From a phage: a DNA stretch of 64,000 nt. The notes beneath the pieces were generated by a model that had not been told where the DNA came from, did not search any database, and was given only the letters and a program-made list of their open reading frames with translations. This document shows positions 216 to 30,559 of this stretch, one piece after another; position 1 is the stretch's first letter; each line of letters starts with the position of its first letter. Location of the stretch: assembly GCA_032430995.1 (NCBI GenBank), contig GCA_032430995.1_3952.1. One strand, 5' to 3'. The position numbers and the translations under genes were made by a program.

Positions 216-1631
216 ATGAGCGAATTATTTAAACATGCGCACCTTCATGCAGGTCGAACTGAAAATGGTGCTGTAAACCATACTTCATCAATGTCTGCTC
301 TTGTAGACTTTTACAAAGCTGCTGGTTCAAGCCGTAGCAACGTAGAAATCTTACCAGACCTGTTCTACAAAGCTTTGCGTGAGGATGTTGATGTTGCAGT
401 TCGTATTTTGCTTCATATGCGAGATGTACGAGAAGGTATGGGTGAGCGTAAAGCCTTCAGAACTGTTTTGCTTCAAGCAATTGAAGATAAAGTTTTAGAG
501 CCTACACAGGTTCTTCGCATTATGGATAAGATTGCAGAACTTGGTCGTTTTGATGACTTCAAAATCTTCGTGGGTACTTGTTTCGAGACAGATGCCTTCA
601 AACATTTAGAAGCAGCATTACTAGACCCTGCAACAGCAGGTTTGGCGGCTAAGTGGTTACCACGAGTCAAACCACGTCATAAGCAGTTTGTAAAACGTTT
701 CTGCAAGTTTGCCAACTTGAGTGAGAAAGAGTACCGCACACTGTTGTCTGCACTATCTGATACAGTTGAGCAAAAAATCTCTGCTAATGAGTTTGGTAAG
801 ATTGACTACAGTAAGATTCCTTCACTTGCTGCTGCACGTTACCAAAAACTGTTTAACCGTAAAGATGGAGAGCGTTACAAAGCTTACATCGAGTCCTTAT
901 CAAAAGGTGAGACTAAGATTAGCGCTGGTGCTGTTTACCCATACGATGTGATTAAATCTGTCAAGCATGGTAATGCAGATGTTGCTAATGAGCAGTGGAA
1001 AGCACTACCAAACTGGATGGCAGAAGGTGAAAACATCTTGTGTATGTCTGATGTATCAAGTTCAATGTCTTGGGTGAATTTTGGCTCCATTACTGCTCTG
1101 GATATTGGTGTATCACTTGCCTTGTATGTAGCAGAACGCAATACAGGTTGCTTTAAGAATGAGTTGATGGTTTATTCAACAAACCCTCACTTCATCGAAC
1201 TGAGTGGTGATTTACGAAACCGTCATCGTCAGGTGATGCGACACGTTGAATATGGCTCAACTAACTTACAAGCAGCTTTTGACCGCATTCTTGAGACAGG
1301 CAAAAGAAACAACTTGACTCAGAAAGATATGCCAAGTAAGCTTATCATCTTCTCCGATATGGAGTTTAATCAGGTTGATGGGGCTAACGGTCGTACAAAC
1401 TTTGAAGCAATTCAGAGTAAGTACAAAAAAGCTGGATATGAGATGCCACAACTGGTATTCTGGTACTTAGCAAACCGTAATGGTACTTGCGAAGTATCTG
1501 TTAAGGATAACGGTGTAGCAATGGTATCAGGGTTCTCTCCAGCCACTTTAAAAGCTCTGCTTGGTGGTGAGAAGTTTGACCCAATCAGTGTAATGCTCAA
1601 AGCAGTAATGATTGACCGTTATATCTGGTAA
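216..1631 (+). CDS. von Willebrand factor A (vWA) domain protein, DUF2828/TROVE-like
   Basis: 471 aa ORF with RBS; MIDAS-like DxSxS motif (DVSSSMS) and a second vWA-like block (LIIFSDMEF) in the C-terminal half; family name recalled from memory, not searched. Confidence 0.5.
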   Translation: MSELFKHAHLHAGRTENGAVNHTSSMSALVDFYKAAGSSRSNVEILPDLFYKALREDVDVAVRILLHMRDVREGMGERKAFRTVLLQAIEDKVLEPTQVLRIMDKIAELGRFDDFKIFVGTCFETDAFKHLEAALLDPATAGLAAKWLPRVKPRHKQFVKRFCKFANLSEKEYRTLLSALSDTVEQKISANEFGKIDYSKIPSLAAARYQKLFNRKDGERYKAYIESLSKGETKISAGAVYPYDVIKSVKHGNADVANEQWKALPNWMAEGENILCMSDVSSSMSWVNFGSITALDIGVSLALYVAERNTGCFKNELMVYSTNPHFIELSGDLRNRHRQVMRHVEYGSTNLQAAFDRILETGKRNNLTQKDMPSKLIIFSDMEFNQVDGANGRTNFEAIQSKYKKAGYEMPQLVFWYLANRNGTCEVSVKDNGVAMVSGFSPATLKALLGGEKFDPISVMLKAVMIDRYIW

Positions 1632-1649: not shown

Positions 1650-1678
1650 TTGACAATGTGTTTAATACCCTTTAATAT
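1650..1678 (+). promoter_or_regulatory. sigma70-like promoter (TTGACA-N17-TAATAT) at head of tRNA array
   Basis: consensus -35 and near-consensus -10 with 17 nt spacer; embedded in inverted repeat AAGGGTAT...ATACCCTT. Confidence 0.5.
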
Positions 1679-1739: not shown

Positions 1740-1769
1740 TTGACAACCACTAAAAAATAATGTTAAAGT
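1740..1769 (+). promoter_or_regulatory. sigma70-like promoter (TTGACA-N18-TAAAGT)
   Basis: same architecture as the promoter at 147-176; immediately upstream of first tRNA. Confidence 0.45.
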
Positions 1770-1957: not shown

Positions 1958-2047
1958 GTTTTGACAGAAGACCAATTACAGCAAACTTAATCTACTCATC
2001 TGAAAGTTAATCGGACAAAGAAGATATTTGGTCTGGTCATTAAGAAT

Positions 2048-2124
2048 TGCGGGTATAGAGAAAGGGCGTCTCACATGTCTCATTAGCATGGTATCGGCAG
2101 GTTCGACTCCTGCACCCGCCTCCA
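2048..2124 (+). tRNA. tRNA-Met/fMet/Ile2 (anticodon CAU)
   Basis: T-arm GCAGG-TTCGACT-CCTGC, anticodon stem CATGT/GCATG loop CTCATTA, CCA; first acceptor pair mismatched. Confidence 0.5.
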
Positions 2125-2207
2125 AATTTACAGAAGACCGTTTACAGCAATATTTATTAAATTTTTAGCGGAAAAATTGAAAGATACGGTCTGGTAATAC
2201 TAAACAT

Positions 2208-2284
2208 GGTTAGGAAGCACATAAGGTATGTGCGGTCGCCTGTTAAGCGAATGGCACAGGGTTCGAATCCCTGACTAACCGCCA
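2208..2284 (+). tRNA. tRNA-Asn (anticodon GUU)
   Basis: anticodon loop CTGTTAA, T-arm CAGGG-TTCGAAT-CCCTG, CCA. Confidence 0.6.
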
Positions 2285-2353
2285 AATTTAGGAGAGAAGC
2301 GATTGCTCACCGATTTGTAAGGTGCAAGTCCTTAGCCTGAATAGAAATCAAAT

Positions 2354-2441
2354 GTGTCGTTATCCCGTAGATGGTAGCGGTGGGGACTGTAAATCCCTTG
2401 TCATTGAGACTCGGTAGGTTCGACTCCTACACGGCACACCA
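2354..2441 (+). tRNA. tRNA-Tyr (anticodon GUA), long variable arm
   Basis: 88 nt; acceptor GTGTCGT/ACGGCAC, anticodon loop CTGTAAA, long variable arm, T-arm GGTTCGACTCC, CCA. Confidence 0.65.
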
Positions 2442-2447
2442 AATAAA

Positions 2448-2525
2448 GGTTATGTAGTTTAATCTGGTTAAAATACTCCCCTGTCACGGGAGATGATGAG
2501 GGTTCAAATCCCTTCGTAACCGCCA
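2448..2525 (+). tRNA. tRNA-Asp (anticodon GUC)
   Basis: anticodon stem CTCCC/GGGAG loop CTGTCAC, T-arm GGGTTCAAATCCC, CCA. Confidence 0.65.
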
Positions 2526-2708
2526 ATTTTGAGAGGGCTATTTAGCCCCTCCCTTAAAGGGTTCTTACGAGTATTCTTTAAAGGAGCAGAAGACCAAATA
2601 CAGCAAGTTATTTAAAATTTCAAGCCAATTTAATTTTGAAAAATTTAAAACTTGGTCTGGCTCAACAAATTTACAGAAGACCGTTTACAGCAAAACTTAA
2701 ACAATCTA

Positions 2709-2782
2709 TTTCTCCGGTAAAGAAAAGGCGAAGGTTCGATTCCTTCACTCGGCAGATGTCGAGTTGGTGTAATGGTAGCACT
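2709..2782 (+). other. tRNA-like element with permuted half order (3' half upstream of 5' half); possible permuted or pseudo tRNA
   Basis: 2709-2754 folds as anticodon-arm-like hairpin (TTTCT-CCGGTAA-AGAAA), T-arm GAAGG-TTCGATT-CCTTC and 3' acceptor strand ACTCGGC; 3 nt later 2758-2781 gives matching 5' acceptor strand GTCGAGT plus a D-arm; no normal upstream 5' half found. Confidence 0.25.
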
Positions 2783-2807
2783 TAAGATGATAAACAACGG
2801 TCTGGTA

Positions 2808-2950
2808 ATTATCTTTGTAGATAAGTTATTAAGCTTACCTGTGAGTATGCGACCACAAAGGGTGAAAGGGTAAATTCTAGATTTAAACCCAAAAAGGCAC
2901 ATCGCTACAGACCTTAAGCAAGTCTGGGTAGCTTATCTACAAAGATAATT
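2808..2950. repeat. perfect 19 bp inverted repeat (AATTATCTTTGTAGATAAG / CTTATCTACAAAGATAATT) flanking a 105 bp spacer
   Basis: arms at 2808-2826 and 2932-2950 are exact reverse complements; lies between the tRNA-like element and tRNA-Lys. Confidence 0.7.
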
Positions 2951-2954
2951 TAAT

Positions 2955-3030: not shown

Positions 3031-3108
3031 AATTCACCCTTAACTGAGAAACACCTGCGCGGCTGGAAACACCCACTCAACAGTTTCTCTAACTAGGGTA
3101 CTTATTCT

Positions 3109-3262: not shown

Positions 3263-3277
3263 ATTTCAATAAAGTTG

Positions 3278-3306
3278 TTGACATTGAGATGTGACTACTT
3301 TATAGT
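3278..3306 (+). promoter_or_regulatory. sigma70-like promoter (TTGACA-N17-TATAGT) internal to tRNA array
   Basis: consensus -35, 17 nt spacer, TATAGT -10. Confidence 0.5.
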
Positions 3307-3508
3307 AACCTTAGTTTTCGTTGCGTAGCGTCTATTTTGCAAATTTAAAATAAATGCAAACGACAATGTTTTTCTGGCAGTAGCTTGATAGGCTAAACAC
3401 CAGTGAGGTCTTCCAATCCCTCATCAAAGAATTTGGCGTACTCGCCCACGGTATGATTAATAAGGTGGGCATCTTTAAGGGCTTTCTAAGAGAGTCTTTA
3501 AAGATAAT

Positions 3509-3727: not shown

Positions 3728-3810
3728 ATGGGACGATGTTAAGACTCTAAGGCATGAGCAACGGCCTCCAAAACCGTTTCAAAGGGGTTCAACTCCTCCG
3801 TCCCATGCCA
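3728..3810 (+). tRNA. tRNA, anticodon uncertain (possibly Trp CCA; enlarged anticodon loop)
   Basis: perfect acceptor ATGGGAC/GTCCCAT, T-loop TTCAACT, CCA; anticodon stem AACGG/CCGTT closes a 9 nt loop CCTCCAAAA. Confidence 0.4.
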
Positions 3811-4574: not shown

Positions 4575-4670
4575 ATTCAGAGGTCAAGTGAAAGACCGCT
4601 TTGAGTCAACTGAAGACCGTAACAAATACCACGGAGTTGAGTTAGCGGCACAACTTCAGACCTCTTTCAT

Positions 4671-16252: not shown

Positions 16253-17605
16253 ATGTGGAATCCAATTGTTAATGTAGATATTACATTGAACACCGCAGGA
16301 ACTACAAGAGAAGGTTTTGGGCTACCACTATTTTTAGCTTCAACAGATAACTTTGAAGAAAGAGTCCGTGGTTACACTTCCTTAACTGAAGTTGCTGAAG
16401 ATTTCGATGAAAACTCTGCTGCATATAAGGCTGCTAAACAACTTTGGAGTCAGACTCCTAAAGTAACTCAGCTTTATATTGGTAGACGTGCTATGCAGTA
16501 CACTGTATCAATTCCTGATGAGGTTACTGAGAGCACCGACTATTCTTTAACTGTAGCTGTGAGCGGTGGAGTTTCTCAGCCATTCCAGTACACTTCACAG
16601 TCAGAAGATACTGCTGAGAAGGTGCTACAGCAGCTTAAAACTCAGATTGAAGCAGAGCCTTCTGTAAAAGACCTTGTTACCGTCAATGTAACTGGTGCTG
16701 GTGGTTCAGCAACAATGGTAATCACCAAAGCGGGTGACAATGACTTCGTGAAGGTTACCACTACAGCACAAACAGTGTCAATTGCAAGTACAACTGCTGA
16801 CACAGCATCGACTGCTCTGGCAGCTATTGAGGCTTATTCAACTGACTGGTATTTCATTGCAGCAGAAGATAGAACTCAACAGTTTGTCTTAGCAATGGCT
16901 TCTGAGATTCAAGCTCGTAAGAAGATTTTCTTTACAGCTAACTCTGATGTAACAGCCCTACAAGGCACAGAATTAGCCAGTGCAAATGATGTTCCAGCAC
17001 AGCTTGTTAAGAGTCAGTACACTCGTACCGTTTGCTTGTGGCATCACACAGCAGCAGAAGACTATCCAGAAATGGCATACATTGCTTATGGCGCTCCGTA
17101 TGATGCAGGTTCAATTGCTTGGGGTAACGCACAGTTAACTGGCGTAGCTGCTTCTCTACAGCCATCTAATCAGAGACCTCTGACAAGTATTCAGAAGTCA
17201 GCTTTAGATGCACGTCACTGTAACTTTATTGACCTTGATGGTGGTGTTCCAGTGGTTCGTAGAGGGATTACTTCTGGTGGGGAATGGATTGATATCATCC
17301 GTGGTGTTGACTGGTTAGAATCAGACCTGAAAACTTCTCTGAGAGACTTGCTAATTAACCAGAAGGGTGGTAAGATTACTTATGATGATACTGGTATTAC
17401 CCGTATTCGTCAAGTCATTGAAACCTCTCTGCAAAGAGCAGTCAACAGAAACTTCCTGTCATCTTACACAGTTAATGTTCCTAAAGCCTCTCAAGTTGCT
17501 TTGGCAGACAAGAAAGCTCGTATCCTGAAAGACGTTACCTTCGCAGGTATCTTAGCAGGGGCTATCTTGGATGTTGACTTGAAAGGTACAGTGGCTTACG
17601 AATAA
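16253..17605 (+). CDS. major tail protein, sheath-like (putative tail sheath)
   Basis: 450 aa, followed by a 148 aa tube-sized gene, chaperone pair and tape measure: myovirus-type gene order. Confidence 0.5.
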   Translation: MWNPIVNVDITLNTAGTTREGFGLPLFLASTDNFEERVRGYTSLTEVAEDFDENSAAYKAAKQLWSQTPKVTQLYIGRRAMQYTVSIPDEVTESTDYSLTVAVSGGVSQPFQYTSQSEDTAEKVLQQLKTQIEAEPSVKDLVTVNVTGAGGSATMVITKAGDNDFVKVTTTAQTVSIASTTADTASTALAAIEAYSTDWYFIAAEDRTQQFVLAMASEIQARKKIFFTANSDVTALQGTELASANDVPAQLVKSQYTRTVCLWHHTAAEDYPEMAYIAYGAPYDAGSIAWGNAQLTGVAASLQPSNQRPLTSIQKSALDARHCNFIDLDGGVPVVRRGITSGGEWIDIIRGVDWLESDLKTSLRDLLINQKGGKITYDDTGITRIRQVIETSLQRAVNRNFLSSYTVNVPKASQVALADKKARILKDVTFAGILAGAILDVDLKGTVAYE

Positions 17606-28018: not shown

Positions 28019-30559
28019 ATGGCAGATTACAAATTGAGTCAATTAAACTCAATCGACACAATTCGTTCAGAAGACCTATTGCACATCAGAGTTAAGAAAA
28101 GACCTGAAATGTTGGGTGATGAAGACCGTAGAATGACCTATCAAGACTTCTTAGCTTCCTTCAAACTAGAAAGGTTTGTTCAGATTGCTGGAAGCACTAT
28201 GACTGGGGATTTAGGTATTGTCAAGTTACTTTACGGTGGAAAGTCTGTATTTGACCCTACAGGCTCTTCTGAGATTACTATTGGGGATATTTTAAAGACT
28301 TTTAAAATTAACGCAAACGGTCTTAAACTAACTATTGCAGATGCTTCAAGGTCAGCAACTGTTTATCATACTCTGAATAAGCCAAGTCCTAATGAGCTTG
28401 GTATGAGGACTAATGAAGAGAATGATGCAAGATACGCAAGACTTGCTATCACAAACACATTCTCTGGAACTCAAAATATTCAAGGTGATGCTAACTTACT
28501 TCGCCTTAGAAACCAAAATGCAAATAATGCACAATATATTGAAGGTGTAAACCTAGATGGTTCGGCTAGATGGTGGGTTGGTATTGGTAGTAATGGCTCT
28601 GACGAAGTAAAGCTGTACAATAACAAATACAACTCAGCCTTGACTGTTGCAAGTAATGTCTCTGTTAATAAGTCTTTAGCAATCACTGGTCAAGTTCAAC
28701 CTTCAGATTTCTCTAACTTAGATGCTAGATACTTCACTCAGACAGTTGCTAATCAGAGATTTGCACAGTTAGCTGCTAATAATAATTTCACGGGCACTAA
28801 CACGTTTAGTAGAAATCTAACTATCATTAGTGACAGTGCTGCTTTAAGGTTGAAAAATGCAACAGCTAGCTCACTATTCATTCAGGGTGTTGACTCTCAG
28901 AACACTAACAGGTGGTATGTAGGGAACGGGGATAACACAGCCTCTGTGCTGCTACACAACTATGTACACGGTTCAAATATCAGACTTGATAATGGCTATA
29001 TCTCAGTCAACCAGAACTTCAGAATCACTGGTCAAGTTCAACCTTCGGATTGGACTAATATTGATTCTAGATATATTCCGGCAGCCACATTAAGTACAAT
29101 TGCAAGAACCAATGCTGCTAACACATTCTCTGCACAACAGGTTATCAACTCTGATGGTGAAGCTCTTGCGTTAAAAGCAAAAACTGCATCGTCATTATTT
29201 ATTAGAGGGAAGGCTGTTGATGGAACCAGCAAGTGGTATATCGGTAATGGTGATGCCAGTGATATCTTAAACCTGTATAACTACAAGACAGGTAAAGGGC
29301 TTAACATTGGTTCAGTATTTGAAATGAATGCAACTTTAGCAATCACTGGTCAAGTTCAACCTTCAGATTTCTCTAACTTAGATGCTAGATATTTTACTCA
29401 AAGTGCTAGTGATAGCAGATACCTGAGAATCAGAAGCACCAGTTTTAATTTAGGAAACGATGAAAAGTGGGCTAAAATCGCTACTGTTGTAATGCCACAA
29501 TCAACATCTACAGCAGTTATTGAGGTTTTTGGAGGTGCTGGTTTTAATGCGAATAACCCATACCAATCAGGCAAGTGTGAAATTGTTTTACGAACATCAA
29601 ATAATAATCCAAAGGATTTAAATGCTGTAGCTTGGAGAACAGCAGATAATGCCCTCATCACGGATATTGGTTACGTTAACACTTCTGGTGACACTTATGA
29701 TATTTACTGTAAGGTTGGAGGCTACCAAAATTCTACGGTATCTAGGGTTCAATCTTCTAGTAATGCAAGTGTACAGTTGTTTGAAGTCCCACAGACATTT
29801 GATGATGCTCCACAAGGTATTGTGAAGGGTACAATTGCAAAATACTACACAAGTTTGCAAAAACCAACCCCTTCAGATATTGGTGCATACACTAAAGCAG
29901 AAACTGACCAGAAGATTGCAGAAGCAATTAGTGACTCTACAGACCTGAATAAAATCTATCCAGTAGGTATTGTAACGTGGTTTAACAGTAATGTTAACCC
30001 TAATACAGCACTTCCTGGGTTAACTTGGACGTACCTGAATAATGGTGTTGGTAGAACTATTAGAATTGCAGCAGCAAACGGTTCAGATGTTGCTACAACT
30101 GGTGGTTCAGACTCTGTAACGTTATCTGTTGGTAACTTACCTTCACATACACACAGTTTCTCTGCTACCACTTCATCATTTGATTATGGTACTAAGACTT
30201 CTAGCACAACTGGTAACCATAACCACAACAGAGGTACTATGGAGATTACTGGTTCATTTGGTTACTTCAGGAGTGACACTAGCAGCTTCTACACAGCAAG
30301 TGGTGCATTCCACCTCGGTAGTCAGGCAGGTTCTAAAGGGTATACTGGTAATAACTTTACTAATGGTATCCCTGTCAACTTCAACGCATCAAGAAACTGG
30401 TCTGGTGTAACGAATACAACAGGTAACCACAGCCACACTGTTGGTATTGGTGCTCACAGCCACACAGTTAGTGGTAACACTGGTGGTACTGGTTCTGGTT
30501 CAGCATTCAGTGTTACTAACCAGTTCTATAAGTTAATGGCTTGGGTAAGAACTGCTTAA
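28019..30559 (+). CDS. long tail fiber protein with internal shaft repeats and His-x-His tip domain
   Basis: 846 aa; three copies of about 110 aa repeat (LAITGQVQPSDFSNLDARYFTQ); C-terminal HTHSFS/HNHN/HSHTV motifs as in upstream fiber. Confidence 0.75.
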   Translation: MADYKLSQLNSIDTIRSEDLLHIRVKKRPEMLGDEDRRMTYQDFLASFKLERFVQIAGSTMTGDLGIVKLLYGGKSVFDPTGSSEITIGDILKTFKINANGLKLTIADASRSATVYHTLNKPSPNELGMRTNEENDARYARLAITNTFSGTQNIQGDANLLRLRNQNANNAQYIEGVNLDGSARWWVGIGSNGSDEVKLYNNKYNSALTVASNVSVNKSLAITGQVQPSDFSNLDARYFTQTVANQRFAQLAANNNFTGTNTFSRNLTIISDSAALRLKNATASSLFIQGVDSQNTNRWYVGNGDNTASVLLHNYVHGSNIRLDNGYISVNQNFRITGQVQPSDWTNIDSRYIPAATLSTIARTNAANTFSAQQVINSDGEALALKAKTASSLFIRGKAVDGTSKWYIGNGDASDILNLYNYKTGKGLNIGSVFEMNATLAITGQVQPSDFSNLDARYFTQSASDSRYLRIRSTSFNLGNDEKWAKIATVVMPQSTSTAVIEVFGGAGFNANNPYQSGKCEIVLRTSNNNPKDLNAVAWRTADNALITDIGYVNTSGDTYDIYCKVGGYQNSTVSRVQSSSNASVQLFEVPQTFDDAPQGIVKGTIAKYYTSLQKPTPSDIGAYTKAETDQKIAEAISDSTDLNKIYPVGIVTWFNSNVNPNTALPGLTWTYLNNGVGRTIRIAAANGSDVATTGGSDSVTLSVGNLPSHTHSFSATTSSFDYGTKTSSTTGNHNHNRGTMEITGSFGYFRSDTSSFYTASGAFHLGSQAGSKGYTGNNFTNGIPVNFNASRNWSGVTNTTGNHSHTVGIGAHSHTVSGNTGGTGSGSAFSVTNQFYKLMAWVRTA
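28681..28740 (+). repeat. intragenic near-identical repeat, copy 1 (tail fiber shaft)
   Basis: 60-mer at 28681-28740 nearly identical to 29341-29400 (3 mismatches); diverged third copy near 29021-29080. Confidence 0.8.
29341..29400 (+). repeat. intragenic near-identical repeat, copy 2 (tail fiber shaft)
   Basis: see copy 1; 660 bp period corresponds to two protein repeat units. Confidence 0.8.

What the first reader, a model, noticed from the sequence alone, without database searches (positions are those of the whole stretch)
1965..2805. Repeated intergenic unit CAGAAGACC-N3-4-TACAGCAA ... GGTCTGG between tRNA genes
At least four copies of a roughly 65-130 bp unit follow tRNA genes: 1965-2036, 2131-2194, 2587-2660 and 2674-2805, with a degenerate copy near 4608-4660. 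Each starts with CAGAAGACC, then TACAGCAA, and ends with GGTCTGG, which can pair with the initial AGACC to close a stem around an AT-rich interior. The fourth copy encloses the permuted tRNA-like element. These could be processing signals, small stable RNAs like those in the T4 tRNA region, or remnants of a mobile spacer.
Basis: seen in the sequence. Interest (0 to 1): 0.5.

Follow-up and report, generated by a model that had tools for sequence, protein, structure and literature searches.

The report
Y-RNA-like genes in phage tRNA array
The four repeated units between the tRNA genes of this Felix O1-like phage are most likely small non-coding RNAs, one of them a scrambled tRNA look-alike, that partner with the Ro60-like ring protein encoded just upstream; the same RNA "handle" sits beside that protein's relatives in many unrelated phages.

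Summary
Exactly four units carry CAGAAGACC-N3-TACAGCAA ... GGTCTGG, at 1965, 2131, 2587 and 2674, all on the + strand (0.27 expected by chance). The claimed fifth copy near 4608 is not supported.

Each unit has a 7-bp closing helix (AGACCNN/NNGGUCU) followed by single-stranded UUACAGCAA. Unit 4 encloses a circularly permuted tRNA-like core (hairpin, T arm, closed acceptor stem, D arm). This is the layout of bacterial YrlA Y RNAs.

A covariance model of unit 4 finds the same RNA beside homologues of the protein (29-47% identity) in about 80 loci chosen only by the protein. Of 68 hits, 67 lie on the gene's strand. Covariation is strong: 95.9% of cells pair, against 58.5% after shuffling.

The handle consensus is AG-helix-CUG plus UUWCAGCAA. 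It also occurs where no tRNA genes are nearby.

Best reading: a new variant of the Ro60/Y RNA ribonucleoprotein, with a different recognition motif. Expression and binding are untested.

The parts
216..1631 (+). Gene for a 471-aa Ro60-like protein (helical ring plus vWA domain with a complete MIDAS motif). It is the orthologue of Bas63 gp130 and the proposed protein partner of the RNAs.
1650..1678 (+). Sigma-70-like promoter match (TTGACA-17-TAATAT) upstream of the tRNA/Y-like RNA array
   Evidence: 10 of 12 consensus positions. This is a consensus match only. The number of promoter-like sites in the region does not exceed that in shuffles.
1740..1769 (+). Second sigma-70-like promoter match (TTGACA-18-TAAAGT, with TG) just before tRNA-Pro
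   Evidence: 10 of 12 consensus positions. No terminator-like site lies on the + strand between here and about 3278, so units 1-4 are probably co-transcribed with tRNA-Pro through tRNA-Ile. This is an inference.
1965..2036 (+). Unit 1: short Y-like RNA, 72 nt. 5' arm 1969-1975 (AGACCAA), motif UUACAGCAA 1976-1984, interior hairpin, 3' arm 2028-2034 (UUGGUCU), then GG.
   Evidence: R1 covariance model score 33.4 bits, E 4.6e-07. Conserved in related phages.
2131..2194 (+). Unit 2: short Y-like RNA, 64 nt. 5' arm 2135-2141 (AGACCGU), motif 2142-2150, A/U hairpin with a GCGG loop, 3' arm 2186-2192 (ACGGUCU), then GG.
   Evidence: R1 score 41.6 bits, E 3.8e-09. Variants in relatives keep the interior U-run/A-run hairpin.
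2587..2660 (+). Unit 3: short Y-like RNA, 74 nt. 5' arm 2591-2597 (AGACCAA), motif AUACAGCAA 2598-2606, A/U hairpin, 3' arm 2652-2658 (UUGGUCU), then GG.
   Evidence: R1 score 33.3 bits, E 4.8e-07 with filters off.
2674..2805 (+). Unit 4: long Y-like RNA, 132 nt, with a YrlA-type permuted tRNA-like core. 5' arm 2678-2684, motif 2685-2693, 3' arm 2797-2803, then GG.
   Evidence: One search gives the fold and the consensus structure of 11 variants. R1 scores 155 bits. Homologues lie beside the protein's relatives, with E values down to 1.7e-12. Covariation is shown.
2709..2725 (+). Unit 4 hairpin in the anticodon-arm/variable-arm position (UUUCU-CCGGUAA-AGAAA)
   Evidence: The Rfam tRNA model aligns it as an anticodon arm (partial hit 2697-2747, 22 bits). 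It is the least conserved helix: 83% of cells paired, and absent in some homologues.
2730..2746 (+). Unit 4 T arm (GAAGG-UUCGAUU-CCUUC)
   Evidence: Invariant in 11 Felix-type variants. 100% of cells paired, with compensatory changes at 4 of 5 pairs across homologues. The GGUUCGAWUCC loop consensus is seen.
2747..2764 (+). Unit 4 acceptor-like 7-bp stem closed by a tetraloop (ACUCGGC-AGAU-GUCGAGU)
   Evidence: Three variant stems with compensatory changes occur among close relatives. All 7 pairs show changes on both sides and 100% of cells are paired across homologues.
2767..2781 (+). Unit 4 D arm (GUGU-AAUGGUA-GCAC), preceded by U-G in the positions of tRNA nucleotides 8 and 9
   Evidence: The homologues in L040, L119 and L117 have the canonical UAGCUCAGUGGUAGAGC.

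Best explanation
The four units are genes for Y-RNA-like non-coding RNAs that partner with the Ro60-like protein encoded at 216-1631.

Proposed steps:
1. The units are transcribed together with the tRNA array (inferred from promoter-like sites and the absence of terminators).
2. The enzymes that mature the neighbouring tRNAs cut them out, and they are trimmed back to the closing helix (inferred).
3. The constant 'handle' is the 7-bp helix that starts A-U, G-C and ends with an unpaired G, together with the adjoining single-stranded UUACAGCAA. It is the binding site of the Ro60-like ring protein. This is inferred from base-identity conservation across proteins only 29-47% identical, and by analogy with Ro60 recognising a conserved helix in Y RNAs.
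4. The variable interior presents a second surface: simple A/U hairpins in units 1-3 and a permuted tRNA mimic in unit 4. By analogy with YrlA and Yrn1, the tRNA mimic would engage a host tRNA- or RNA-handling factor such as PNPase or tRNA-modifying enzymes. This would tether or gate the ring protein (speculative).
5. The resulting RNP alters RNA decay or quality control, or blunts a host defence. In the sister phage Bas63 the protein is needed to counter the Ppl defence system (from the literature).
For: The units are real and non-random.

Protein evidence:
- The MIDAS residues are invariant.
- The PhageMaP preprint reports independently that Bas63 gp130, 98% identical to this ORF, resembles Ro60 and counters Ppl. 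Its authors only guessed that some downstream 'tRNA genes' might be Y RNAs.

RNA evidence:
- Unit 4 has the order closing stem, hairpin, T arm, closed acceptor stem, D arm, closing stem. This is the YrlA layout described by Chen et al. 2014. I saw the same layout directly in the Bxz1 YrlA next to a canonical Ro60 gene.
- Model R1, built only from Felix-type unit 4, finds 68 hits in 78 loci selected only by protein homology. Of these, 67 are on the gene's strand and E values reach 1.7e-12. Many start 10-40 nt after the stop codon or just before the start codon.
- Covariation on 17 hits: 95.9% of cells paired against 58.5% shuffled and 36-44% slid; 26 of 28 pairs changed on both sides; score 0.704 against at most 0.113.
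- An independent strict pattern search gives 85 units on the gene strand, 4 on the other strand, and about 3 in shuffles.
- The handle consensus from 46 divergent units is A35/46, G42/46, R, N, Y46/46, N, N, U, U43/46, W, C, A40/46, G, C, A, A42/46 on the 5' side. On the 3' side it is C45/46, U35/46, G39/46. The window units fit it exactly.
- The same handle lies next to the gene in Listeria, Staphylococcus, Enterococcus, Campylobacter and mycobacteriophage genomes.
- It is also present in loci without any tRNA gene within 4 kb.
Against: - There are no expression, end-mapping or binding data.
- The canonical Ro-binding motifs (GGUCCGA in animals, GNCGAAN0-1G in bacteria) are absent.
- The protein is not a TROVE family member by sequence: Pfam gives no hit, BLASTP against Bxz1 Ro gives E 1.1, and hhalign aligns only the MIDAS segment.
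- Single-sequence folding z-scores are modest, from -1.1 to -2.1.
- Units 1-3 (64-74 nt) are shorter than typical Y RNAs.
- The covariation alignment was fitted to the model, and the model's E-values are rough.
- The window's own 15/48-equivalent pair is A.C rather than a Levitt pair.
Confidence: 0.8

Rival explanations
1. The units are cis-acting processing signals or spacers that guide maturation of the polycistronic tRNA precursor, for example as RNase III or RNase E entry sites. On this reading they have no life of their own as RNAs.
For: They lie between tRNA genes in one apparent transcription unit. Each is a hairpin-like structure.
Against: The same handle flanks the protein's homologues in loci with no tRNA gene within 4 kb: L052, L062, L082, L092 and L106. 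It follows the gene rather than the tRNAs, lying immediately upstream in the Listeria, Campylobacter and Aeromonas phages and immediately downstream in the Staphylococcus phage and Felix-type phages. A processing hairpin would not need an invariant single-stranded CAGCAA or a tRNA-like core with conserved T and D loops. Most tRNA junctions in the same array lack such units.
Confidence: 0.07
2. The handle is a binding site for the Ro60-like protein, but it acts in cis on the long transcript. It would work through autoregulation of the gene's mRNA or protection of the tRNA precursor, not as free small RNAs.
For: In KVP40 a handle-like element overlaps the gene's ribosome-binding site and start codon (L038 4961-5008). 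In several phages the units sit in the 5' leader of the gene.
Against: Position relative to the gene varies: before it, after it, or more than 300 nt to 3 kb away among tRNAs. Copy number ranges from 1 to 8. The interiors are elaborate modules such as tRNA mimics. All of this is what is expected of independent RNAs. Known Ro60 partners are free small RNAs.
Confidence: 0.08
3. The units are remnants of a small mobile or recombinogenic repeat (MITE/REP-like, or cassette junctions of tRNA gene shuffling).
For: They are multicopy, with short inverted termini (AGACC/GGTCT) and A/T-rich interiors. Copy number varies from 1 to 4 exact-motif matches per held locus among Felix-type phages.
Against: Strand bias is absolute in the window and 85:4 across loci. 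The only whole-window strict-pattern matches outside the array (1274, 16617 and two on the minus strand near 28.2 kb) lie in or near coding sequence and lack CAGCAA where inspected. Compensatory changes maintain the helices. Linkage to one protein family holds across phages of Gram-negative, Gram-positive and actinobacterial hosts. No target-site duplications or transposase genes were seen.
Confidence: 0.03
4. Unit 4 is a permuted or decayed tRNA gene (functional after rearrangement, or a pseudogene), and the other units are unrelated hairpins that share short words.
For: A partial tRNA model hit at 2697-2747, 22 bits. Canonical T and D arms.
Against: The acceptor stem is closed by a 4-nt loop with no CCA. 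The putative anticodon loop has C where U33 should be, and that hairpin is absent or different in relatives. Bacteria lack the splicing and circularisation route used for permuted tRNA genes (established knowledge). All four units share the 17-nt handle and score with one model. Conservation with covariation across distant phages argues against a pseudogene.
Confidence: 0.02

Closest known systems
YrlA/YrlB, the bacterial and mycobacteriophage Y RNAs bound by Rsr (Ro60) (Chen et al. 2014, PMC4201824)
   Same: - Encoded within a few kb of a Ro60-type gene and on the same strand.
- The 5' and 3' ends pair to form a stem.
- One RNA per locus carries a tRNA-like core in the order variable hairpin, T arm, closed acceptor stem, D arm. 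Shorter companions (YrlB-like) lack this core.
- R1 matches the core of the Bxz1 YrlA, model positions 37-109.
   Different: - The conserved 5' motif is UUWCAGCAA next to an AG...CUG helix, not GNCGAAN0-1G.
- The partner protein belongs to DUF2828/DUF7788, not TROVE/vWA_Ro60. It has no detectable sequence similarity to TROVE Ro60 beyond the MIDAS loop.
- R1 does not align the stem or motif parts of the Bxz1 YrlA.
- Here the RNAs are interleaved with a tRNA array.
Thermus phage phiLo Ro60 with Yrl1/Yrl2 (PMC12135203)
   Different: The phiLo RNAs were defined by a CGAA motif and lie upstream of a TROVE-family gene. Binding and PNPase recruitment were shown experimentally there. Nothing has been tested here.
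Deinococcus radiodurans Yrn1 and the RYPER complex (Ro60/Y RNA/PNPase)
   Same: A Y RNA with a T-arm-like element and an anticodon-arm-like hairpin that tethers a Ro60 ring to another RNA enzyme. This is the mechanistic template for step 4 of the proposed mechanism.
   Different: Yrn1 has no full D arm and a different motif. PNPase involvement here is only an analogy.
Metazoan Y RNAs (Rfam RF00019)
   Same: Small RNAs whose terminal stem carries conserved base identities recognised by Ro60, with a variable internal region.
   Different: There is no Rfam hit even at E <= 10. The motif and the polymerase differ, and metazoan Y RNAs have no tRNA-like core.
T4 tRNA-region stable RNAs (species 1 and 2, rnaC/rnaD)
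   Same: Small non-tRNA RNAs co-encoded with a phage tRNA cluster.
   Different: The comparison rests on recall only. T4-like hits cover only tRNA-Tyr, not the units. T4 itself is not among the phages listed with the DUF2828 protein, although the T4-like phage KVP40 is. Not tested further.

Membership tests
Y RNA (Ro60-associated ncRNA, YrlA/YrlB type) | Encoded close to (within about 4 kb of) a Ro60 orthologue and on the same strand | tested here: met
   The units start 334-1043 nt after the stop codon of the Ro60-fold ORF, on the same strand. In 78 homologous loci, 67 of 68 model hits are on the gene's strand, mostly within 600 nt of the gene. Caveat: the protein is Ro60-like by fold only.
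Y RNA (Ro60-associated ncRNA, YrlA/YrlB type) | The 5' and 3' ends pair to form a terminal stem around an internal loop or module | tested here: met
   A 7-bp closing helix is present in all four units. All 7 pairs show changes on both sides and 99.2% of cells are paired across homologues.
Y RNA (Ro60-associated ncRNA, YrlA/YrlB type) | Conserved Ro60-binding motif (GNCGAAN0-1G in bacteria, GGUCCGA in animals) in the 5' strand | tested here: not met
   The units carry (CAGA)AGACCNN-UUACAGCAA, and the family consensus is AGRNYNN-UUWCAGCAA. The Bxz1 YrlA shows GGCCGAGAG instead.
Y RNA (Ro60-associated ncRNA, YrlA/YrlB type) | At least one RNA per locus has a tRNA-like domain (T arm, closed acceptor stem-loop, D arm) | tested here: met
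   Unit 4, 2730-2781. T- and D-loop consensus appears in homologues. Covariation is shown.
Y RNA (Ro60-associated ncRNA, YrlA/YrlB type) | Physically bound by the Ro60 protein and accumulates as a discrete small RNA | not testable with these tools
The held literature only speculates.
Ro60 / TROVE protein family (for ORF 216-1631) | Sequence membership: Pfam TROVE (PF05731) and vWA_Ro60 (PF25045) | tested here: not met
   Only DUF2828 and DUF7788 match, even at E <= 10. No PDB sequence hit was found. hhalign against Bxz1 Ro aligns 40 columns around MIDAS with probability 53%.
Ro60 / TROVE protein family (for ORF 216-1631) | Fold: alpha-helical (HEAT-like) ring closed by a vWA domain with a MIDAS motif | tested here: met
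Any Rfam 15 family | Score at or near the family's gathering threshold | tested here: not met
   The only hit is a partial tRNA match of 22 bits (gathering score 29) inside unit 4, plus chance-level hits. Rfam also gave no gathering-level hit on the Bxz1 YrlA, so it appears to hold no bacterial Y RNA model. The miss therefore says little.
Permuted tRNA gene (functional tRNA after processing) | Halves that can be rejoined into a tRNA with free acceptor ends, a CCA or discriminator, and a canonical anticodon loop | tested here: not met
   The acceptor stem is closed by AGAU with no CCA. The loop CCGGUAA lacks U33. The hairpin is variable or absent in relatives. ARAGORN calls nothing here.

The most novel reading that the evidence does not exclude
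DUF2828-type Ro60-like ring proteins are present in at least 710 sequenced phage genomes, infecting Gram-negative, Gram-positive and actinobacterial hosts. On this reading they use one universal RNA 'handle' (an AG-helix-CUG plus UUWCAGCAA) to load interchangeable RNA modules. The modules seen are simple hairpins, a permuted tRNA mimic, an acceptor-less tRNA mimic in normal order, and at least one further conserved module.

The phage would thereby programme the ring with a small library of adaptors, up to about 8 per genome. These adaptors would capture or decoy host tRNA-directed enzymes or defence nucleases. That would explain why Bas63 gp130 counters the Ppl defence system.
Probability: 0.35. 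Interest if true: 0.85.

Novelty: new variant of a known kind. Interest (0 to 1): 0.68.

Why it matters
Ro60/Y RNA particles are conserved from bacteria to humans, where Ro60 is a lupus and Sjogren autoantigen. Their function in microbes remains unclear.

The PhageMaP preprint showed that the Felix-type Ro60-like protein (Bas63 gp130) counters a bacterial defence system. It could only guess that some downstream 'tRNA genes' might be its RNAs.

This analysis adds three things:
- It names concrete candidate RNAs in a genetically tractable E. coli phage.
- It shows they belong to a widespread, previously unannotated RNA family with a recognition motif different from that of all described Y RNAs.
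- It suggests a modular handle-plus-module design.

This makes direct experiments possible, such as pull-downs, handle mutations and unit deletions tested on Ppl hosts.

It would also correct the annotation of many phage genomes. These RNAs are currently unmarked or covered by spurious short ORFs such as bas63_0137.

Tried and rejected
- **Rfam** at E <= 1 and E <= 10 gave no Y RNA or other family for the units. I later found that Rfam also gives no gathering-level hit on a bona fide YrlA in Bxz1, so I did not count this against the Y RNA reading.
- **Sequence searches** of the ORF and of a 36-sequence profile against PDB gave nothing. Only fold comparison revealed Ro60.
- **The fifth copy** at 4608-4660 was rejected.
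- **The exact Felix motif** in IMG/VR also hit six non-Felix contigs (L008, L010, L016, L018, L031, L037). These lack the 3' arm and sit in GC-rich or coding sequence, so I rejected them as chance matches.
- **A relaxed search** (motif plus any 7-bp stem) was too noisy to use: 297 hits on + against 200 on -. The stricter AG/CUG-anchored search was used instead.
- **An alternative register** pairing CAG...CUG with an AAG bulge was considered, because it would be reminiscent of the bulged Y RNA helix. I dropped it because the CAGA leader is not conserved outside Felix-type phages.
- **A possible 'anticodon stem'** between the two linkers of unit 4 (AUCU/AGAU, or CUUAA/UUAAG) is not maintained in the variants.
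- **Literature searches** for DUF2828, Ro60-like, Felixounavirus plus Ro60, and Felix O1 small RNAs found no description of these RNAs. One literature query failed and one review was not held.
- **Strict-pattern hits** in the window at 1274-1434 and 16617-16664 lie inside coding sequence, lack CAGCAA, and were rejected.
Full report
**Setting.** The window is a Felix O1-like myovirus (Felixounavirus). Region 1600-3100 matches 299 phage records, among them Salmonella phage FelixO1 at 98.0% and Escherichia phage JohannRWettstein (Bas63) at 98.2%. ARAGORN finds 26 tRNA genes, all on the + strand, between 1796 and 7079. The finding lies in the first kilobase of this array.

**Checking the observation.**
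- CAGAAGACC-N3-TACAGCAA occurs exactly four times in 64 kb, at 1965, 2131, 2587 and 2674. All are on the + strand with no mismatch, and allowing three mismatches adds none. The expectation is 0.27, and no shuffle reached four.
- The paired ends AGACC...GGTCTGG give three hits at 30-60 nt spacing against 0.07 expected. The fourth unit is simply longer.
- Each unit folds into a 7-bp closing helix AGACCNN/NNGGUCU. The NN pairs covary within the window: AA/UU in units 1 and 3, GU/AC in units 2 and 4.
- A scan of IMG/VR with the exact motif returned 36 loci. Thirty of these are stretches of Felix-type contigs. Six others are chance matches that lack the 3' arm.
- In the held loci I extracted 114 units, 62 of them distinct. 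The variable pairs are AA/TT 55 times, GT/AC 54 times and something else 5 times.
- The fifth, 'degenerate' copy near 4608-4660 is not a member. It has neither the CAGCAA motif nor the 3' arm, and no search recovers it. It is part of a different 94-nt hairpin.

**Anatomy of unit 4.** Inside the closing helix lie four elements:
- a hairpin at 2709-2725;
- a perfect T arm at 2730-2746 (GAAGG-UUCGAUU-CCUUC);
- a 7-bp acceptor-like stem closed by a tetraloop at 2747-2764;
- a D arm at 2767-2781 (GUGU-AAUGGUA-GCAC), preceded by U-G.

The Rfam tRNA model aligns 2697-2747 as an anticodon arm plus T arm (22 bits). Close relatives carry three different acceptor-like stems with compensatory changes: ACUCGGC/GUCGAGU, ACACG/CGUGU and ACCCUUC/GAAGGGU. 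The element is therefore a circular permutation of a tRNA, opened between the D arm and the anticodon arm and closed at the acceptor end.

**The neighbouring gene.** ORF 216-1631 (471 aa) matches only Pfam DUF2828 and DUF7788 and PHROG 850, 'RNA-binding protein'.
- Sequence searches against PDB find nothing.
- An AlphaFold2 model built on 36 homologues has pLDDT 88 and pTM 0.87.
- The ten best Foldseek hits are all Ro60 proteins: Xenopus, human, Deinococcus Rsr and Thermus phage phiLo.
- The MIDAS residues D279, S281, S283, T349 and D381 are invariant.
- Mycobacteriophage homologues are annotated 'Ro-like RNA binding protein'.

The ORF is 98% identical to bas63_0130. The PhageMaP preprint reports that this gp130 resembles Ro60 and counters the Ppl defence system. 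It speculates, without identifying any RNA, that some downstream tRNA genes might be Y RNAs.

**Comparison with Y RNAs.** Chen et al. 2014 describe bacterial and mycobacteriophage YrlA RNAs. They are encoded within 4 kb of Ro60 on the same strand. Their order is 5' motif, V hairpin, T arm, closed acceptor stem-loop, D arm, 3' end. They have shorter YrlB companions. Unit 4 has this layout, and units 1-3 look like the companions.

I checked a canonical case directly. Bxz1 gp220 is TROVE plus vWA_Ro60 by Pfam. Its upstream YrlA (L121, about 29937-30090) shows the same order of elements. My model R1 matches only its tRNA-like core, model positions 37-109. The Bxz1 RNA has GGCCGAGAG where the Felix units have UUACAGCAA. 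The two proteins show no BLASTP similarity (E 1.1), and only the MIDAS segment aligns by hhalign. Rfam gives no gathering-level hit on the Bxz1 YrlA either, so the lack of an Rfam hit for the units is uninformative.

**Is the RNA tied to the protein?** I built covariance model R1 from 11 Felix-type variants of unit 4. I then fetched 80 loci that encode relatives of the protein, selected by peptide patterns alone. Five of these are near-identical Felix-type loci and 75 are at 38-47% identity; the 75 were searched together with KVP40, LAh_6 and Krypton555.
- R1 finds 68 hits at E <= 5 in the 78 loci searched, 67 on the gene's strand. Full-length matches reach E 1.7e-12 (L065, L117, L059, L087, L068, L119, L051, L071 and others).
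- One hit lies in the 374-bp gap right after the Ro-like gene of mycobacteriophage Krypton555.
- Many short hits (55-70 nt) begin 10-40 nt after the stop codon.
- On 17 aligned hits, 95.9% of cells pair, against 58.5% after shuffling and 36-44% when partners are slid. Twenty-six of 28 pairs show changes on both sides. The covariation score is 0.704 against at most 0.113. The alignment is fitted to the model, which inflates these numbers somewhat, but the margin is large.
- An independent strict pattern was also tried: AG plus 5 nt, a 2-4 nt spacer, C[ACU]GCA, and a perfect 7-bp partner ending CU and then G. It gives 85 units on the gene strand, 4 on the other strand, and 0-6 in shuffles. Forty-four of 79 loci have at least one.
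- Loci L052, L062, L082, L092 and L106 have a unit next to the gene but no tRNA gene within 4 kb.
- The handle is also found next to the gene in Listeria phage LMSP-25 (three units upstream), Staphylococcus phage S-CoN_Ph2 (three units downstream), Campylobacter phage F341 and Enterococcus phage VRE9_1. In these the proteins are only 29-36% identical.

**The handle.** Forty-six divergent units give the following consensus:
- 5' side: W-W-W-A(35/46)-G(42)-R-N-Y(46)-N-N-U(35)-U(43)-W-C-A(40)-G-C-A-A(42).
- 3' side: N-N-R-N-Y-C(45)-U(35)-G(39)-N.

The window units fit this exactly. Conserved base identities inside a helix, next to an invariant single-stranded word and kept across very divergent proteins, are the signature of a protein-binding site.

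**Mechanism.**
- Shown here: four units, a shared handle, a tRNA-like core in one unit, a Ro60-fold gene upstream, and family-wide linkage with covariation.
- Inferred: co-transcription from the promoter-like sites at 1650-1678 and 1740-1769, with no terminator-like site before about 3278; excision by tRNA-processing enzymes; and binding of the handle by the ring protein.
- Speculative: the interior modules recruit host factors, such as PNPase in RYPER and in phiLo, or act as decoys, contributing to the anti-Ppl activity of gp130.
- Context elsewhere fits RNA repair or quality control. An RtcB ligase and a phosphohydrolase follow the gene in LMSP-25, and an RNA ligase 2 lies nearby in LAh_6.

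**Rivals.**
- tRNA-processing signals are contradicted by the tRNA-free loci.
- Cis-acting protein sites remain possible for some members, such as the KVP40 leader. They do not explain the variable placement, copy number and elaborate modules.
- Mobile repeats are contradicted by strand bias, gene linkage and covariation.
- A functional permuted tRNA is excluded by the closed acceptor stem, the non-canonical and non-conserved anticodon-like hairpin, and the lack of the required splicing pathway in bacteria.

**Verdict.** The repeat is real and is best read as a set of Y-RNA-like genes. These form a new variant of the Ro60/Y RNA system, with a different recognition motif and a protein partner that sequence methods do not recognise as Ro60. 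I found no description of these RNAs in the searchable literature, and the records I inspected do not annotate them. Expression and binding remain to be shown.

Noticed in passing
window 2806-2952: A 147-nt element directly after unit 4 folds into a 24-bp closing helix around three small hairpins (-48.3 kcal/mol, z -6.75, 0 of 200 shuffles as stable). It has no Rfam hit. Bas63 annotates a minus-strand 'hypothetical protein' (bas63_0138) over it. It may be another structured RNA of the tRNA region.
   Followed up: partly
window 4575-4668: A 94-nt hairpin lies between tRNA-Thr and tRNA-Val (z -3.27). It lacks the handle motif and is not a member of the unit family.
   Followed up: partly
window 3031-3108: A 78-nt spacer between tRNA-Lys and tRNA-Met folds into a long imperfect hairpin (CCCUU...GAGAAAC/GUUUCUC...AGGG, z -4.31). 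In Bas63 this spacer appears to be absent: the tRNA-Lys and tRNA-Met genes are only 4 nt apart.
   Followed up: no
window 3263-3508: This region holds the best promoter match of the area (3278-3306, TTGACA-17-TATAGT, 11 of 12). It is followed by about 200 nt with weak sub-threshold hits to tmRNA_permuted (29 bits, gathering score 47) and tmRNA. The content is unknown.
   Followed up: no
window 3730-3804 and 2285-2353: Two tRNA-like remnants are not called by ARAGORN. At 3730-3804 there is a weak tRNA-Sec model hit (23 bits) downstream of a promoter-like site. In the Asn-Tyr spacer there is a T-arm-like AAGGTGCAAGTCCTT at 2319-2333.
   Followed up: no
window 2645-2902 (minus strand): An 85-aa ORF lies antisense to unit 4. 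A shorter version is annotated as the hypothetical protein bas63_0137 in Bas63. Near-identical phages differ by a 1-nt indel inside it (131-nt versus 132-nt unit 4 variants), which would shift its frame. The ORF call is probably spurious.
   Followed up: partly
L087 3754-3857; L081 3730-3837 and 3845-3939: In some distant relatives the same handle encloses a non-permuted, acceptor-less tRNA-like cloverleaf (D arm, anticodon arm, T arm). ARAGORN even calls one of them tRNA-Asn(att). The family thus uses both permuted and normal-order tRNA mimics.
   Followed up: partly
L047 3272-3374; L048 3129-3236; L065 3730-3832: Three loci share a further interior module (CCUUUCNGGAGGGGAAAGCAAAAACUCGCCAAAA) inside the same handle. 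This suggests a modular design: a constant handle with exchangeable modules.
   Followed up: no
L039 (Aeromonas phage LAh_6) 3986-4959: An array of at least seven short units (51-66 nt) lies head to tail directly upstream of the Ro60-like gene, and one more is at 529-587. This is the largest copy number seen.
   Followed up: partly
L038 (Vibrio phage KVP40) 4961-5008: A weak handle-like element (GACAUU-UUACAGCAA...AAUGUC-AG; R1 E about 1) overlaps the ribosome-binding site and start codon of the KVP40 homologue. It may be an autoregulatory site.
   Followed up: no
L123 (Listeria phage LMSP-25) 5075-7019; L039 10070-10993: RNA-repair genes lie near the Ro60-like gene in other phages: a phosphohydrolase and an RtcB 'tRNA splicing ligase' in LMSP-25, and RNA ligase 2 in LAh_6. 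This echoes the rsr-yrlBA-rtcBA operon of Salmonella.
   Followed up: no
literature search: Four of the five held papers that mention DUF2828 concern plants (potato, wheat, poplar, Casuarina); the fifth concerns a tardigrade genome. The protein family therefore appears to extend to eukaryotes, where an RNA partner has apparently not been considered.
   Followed up: no
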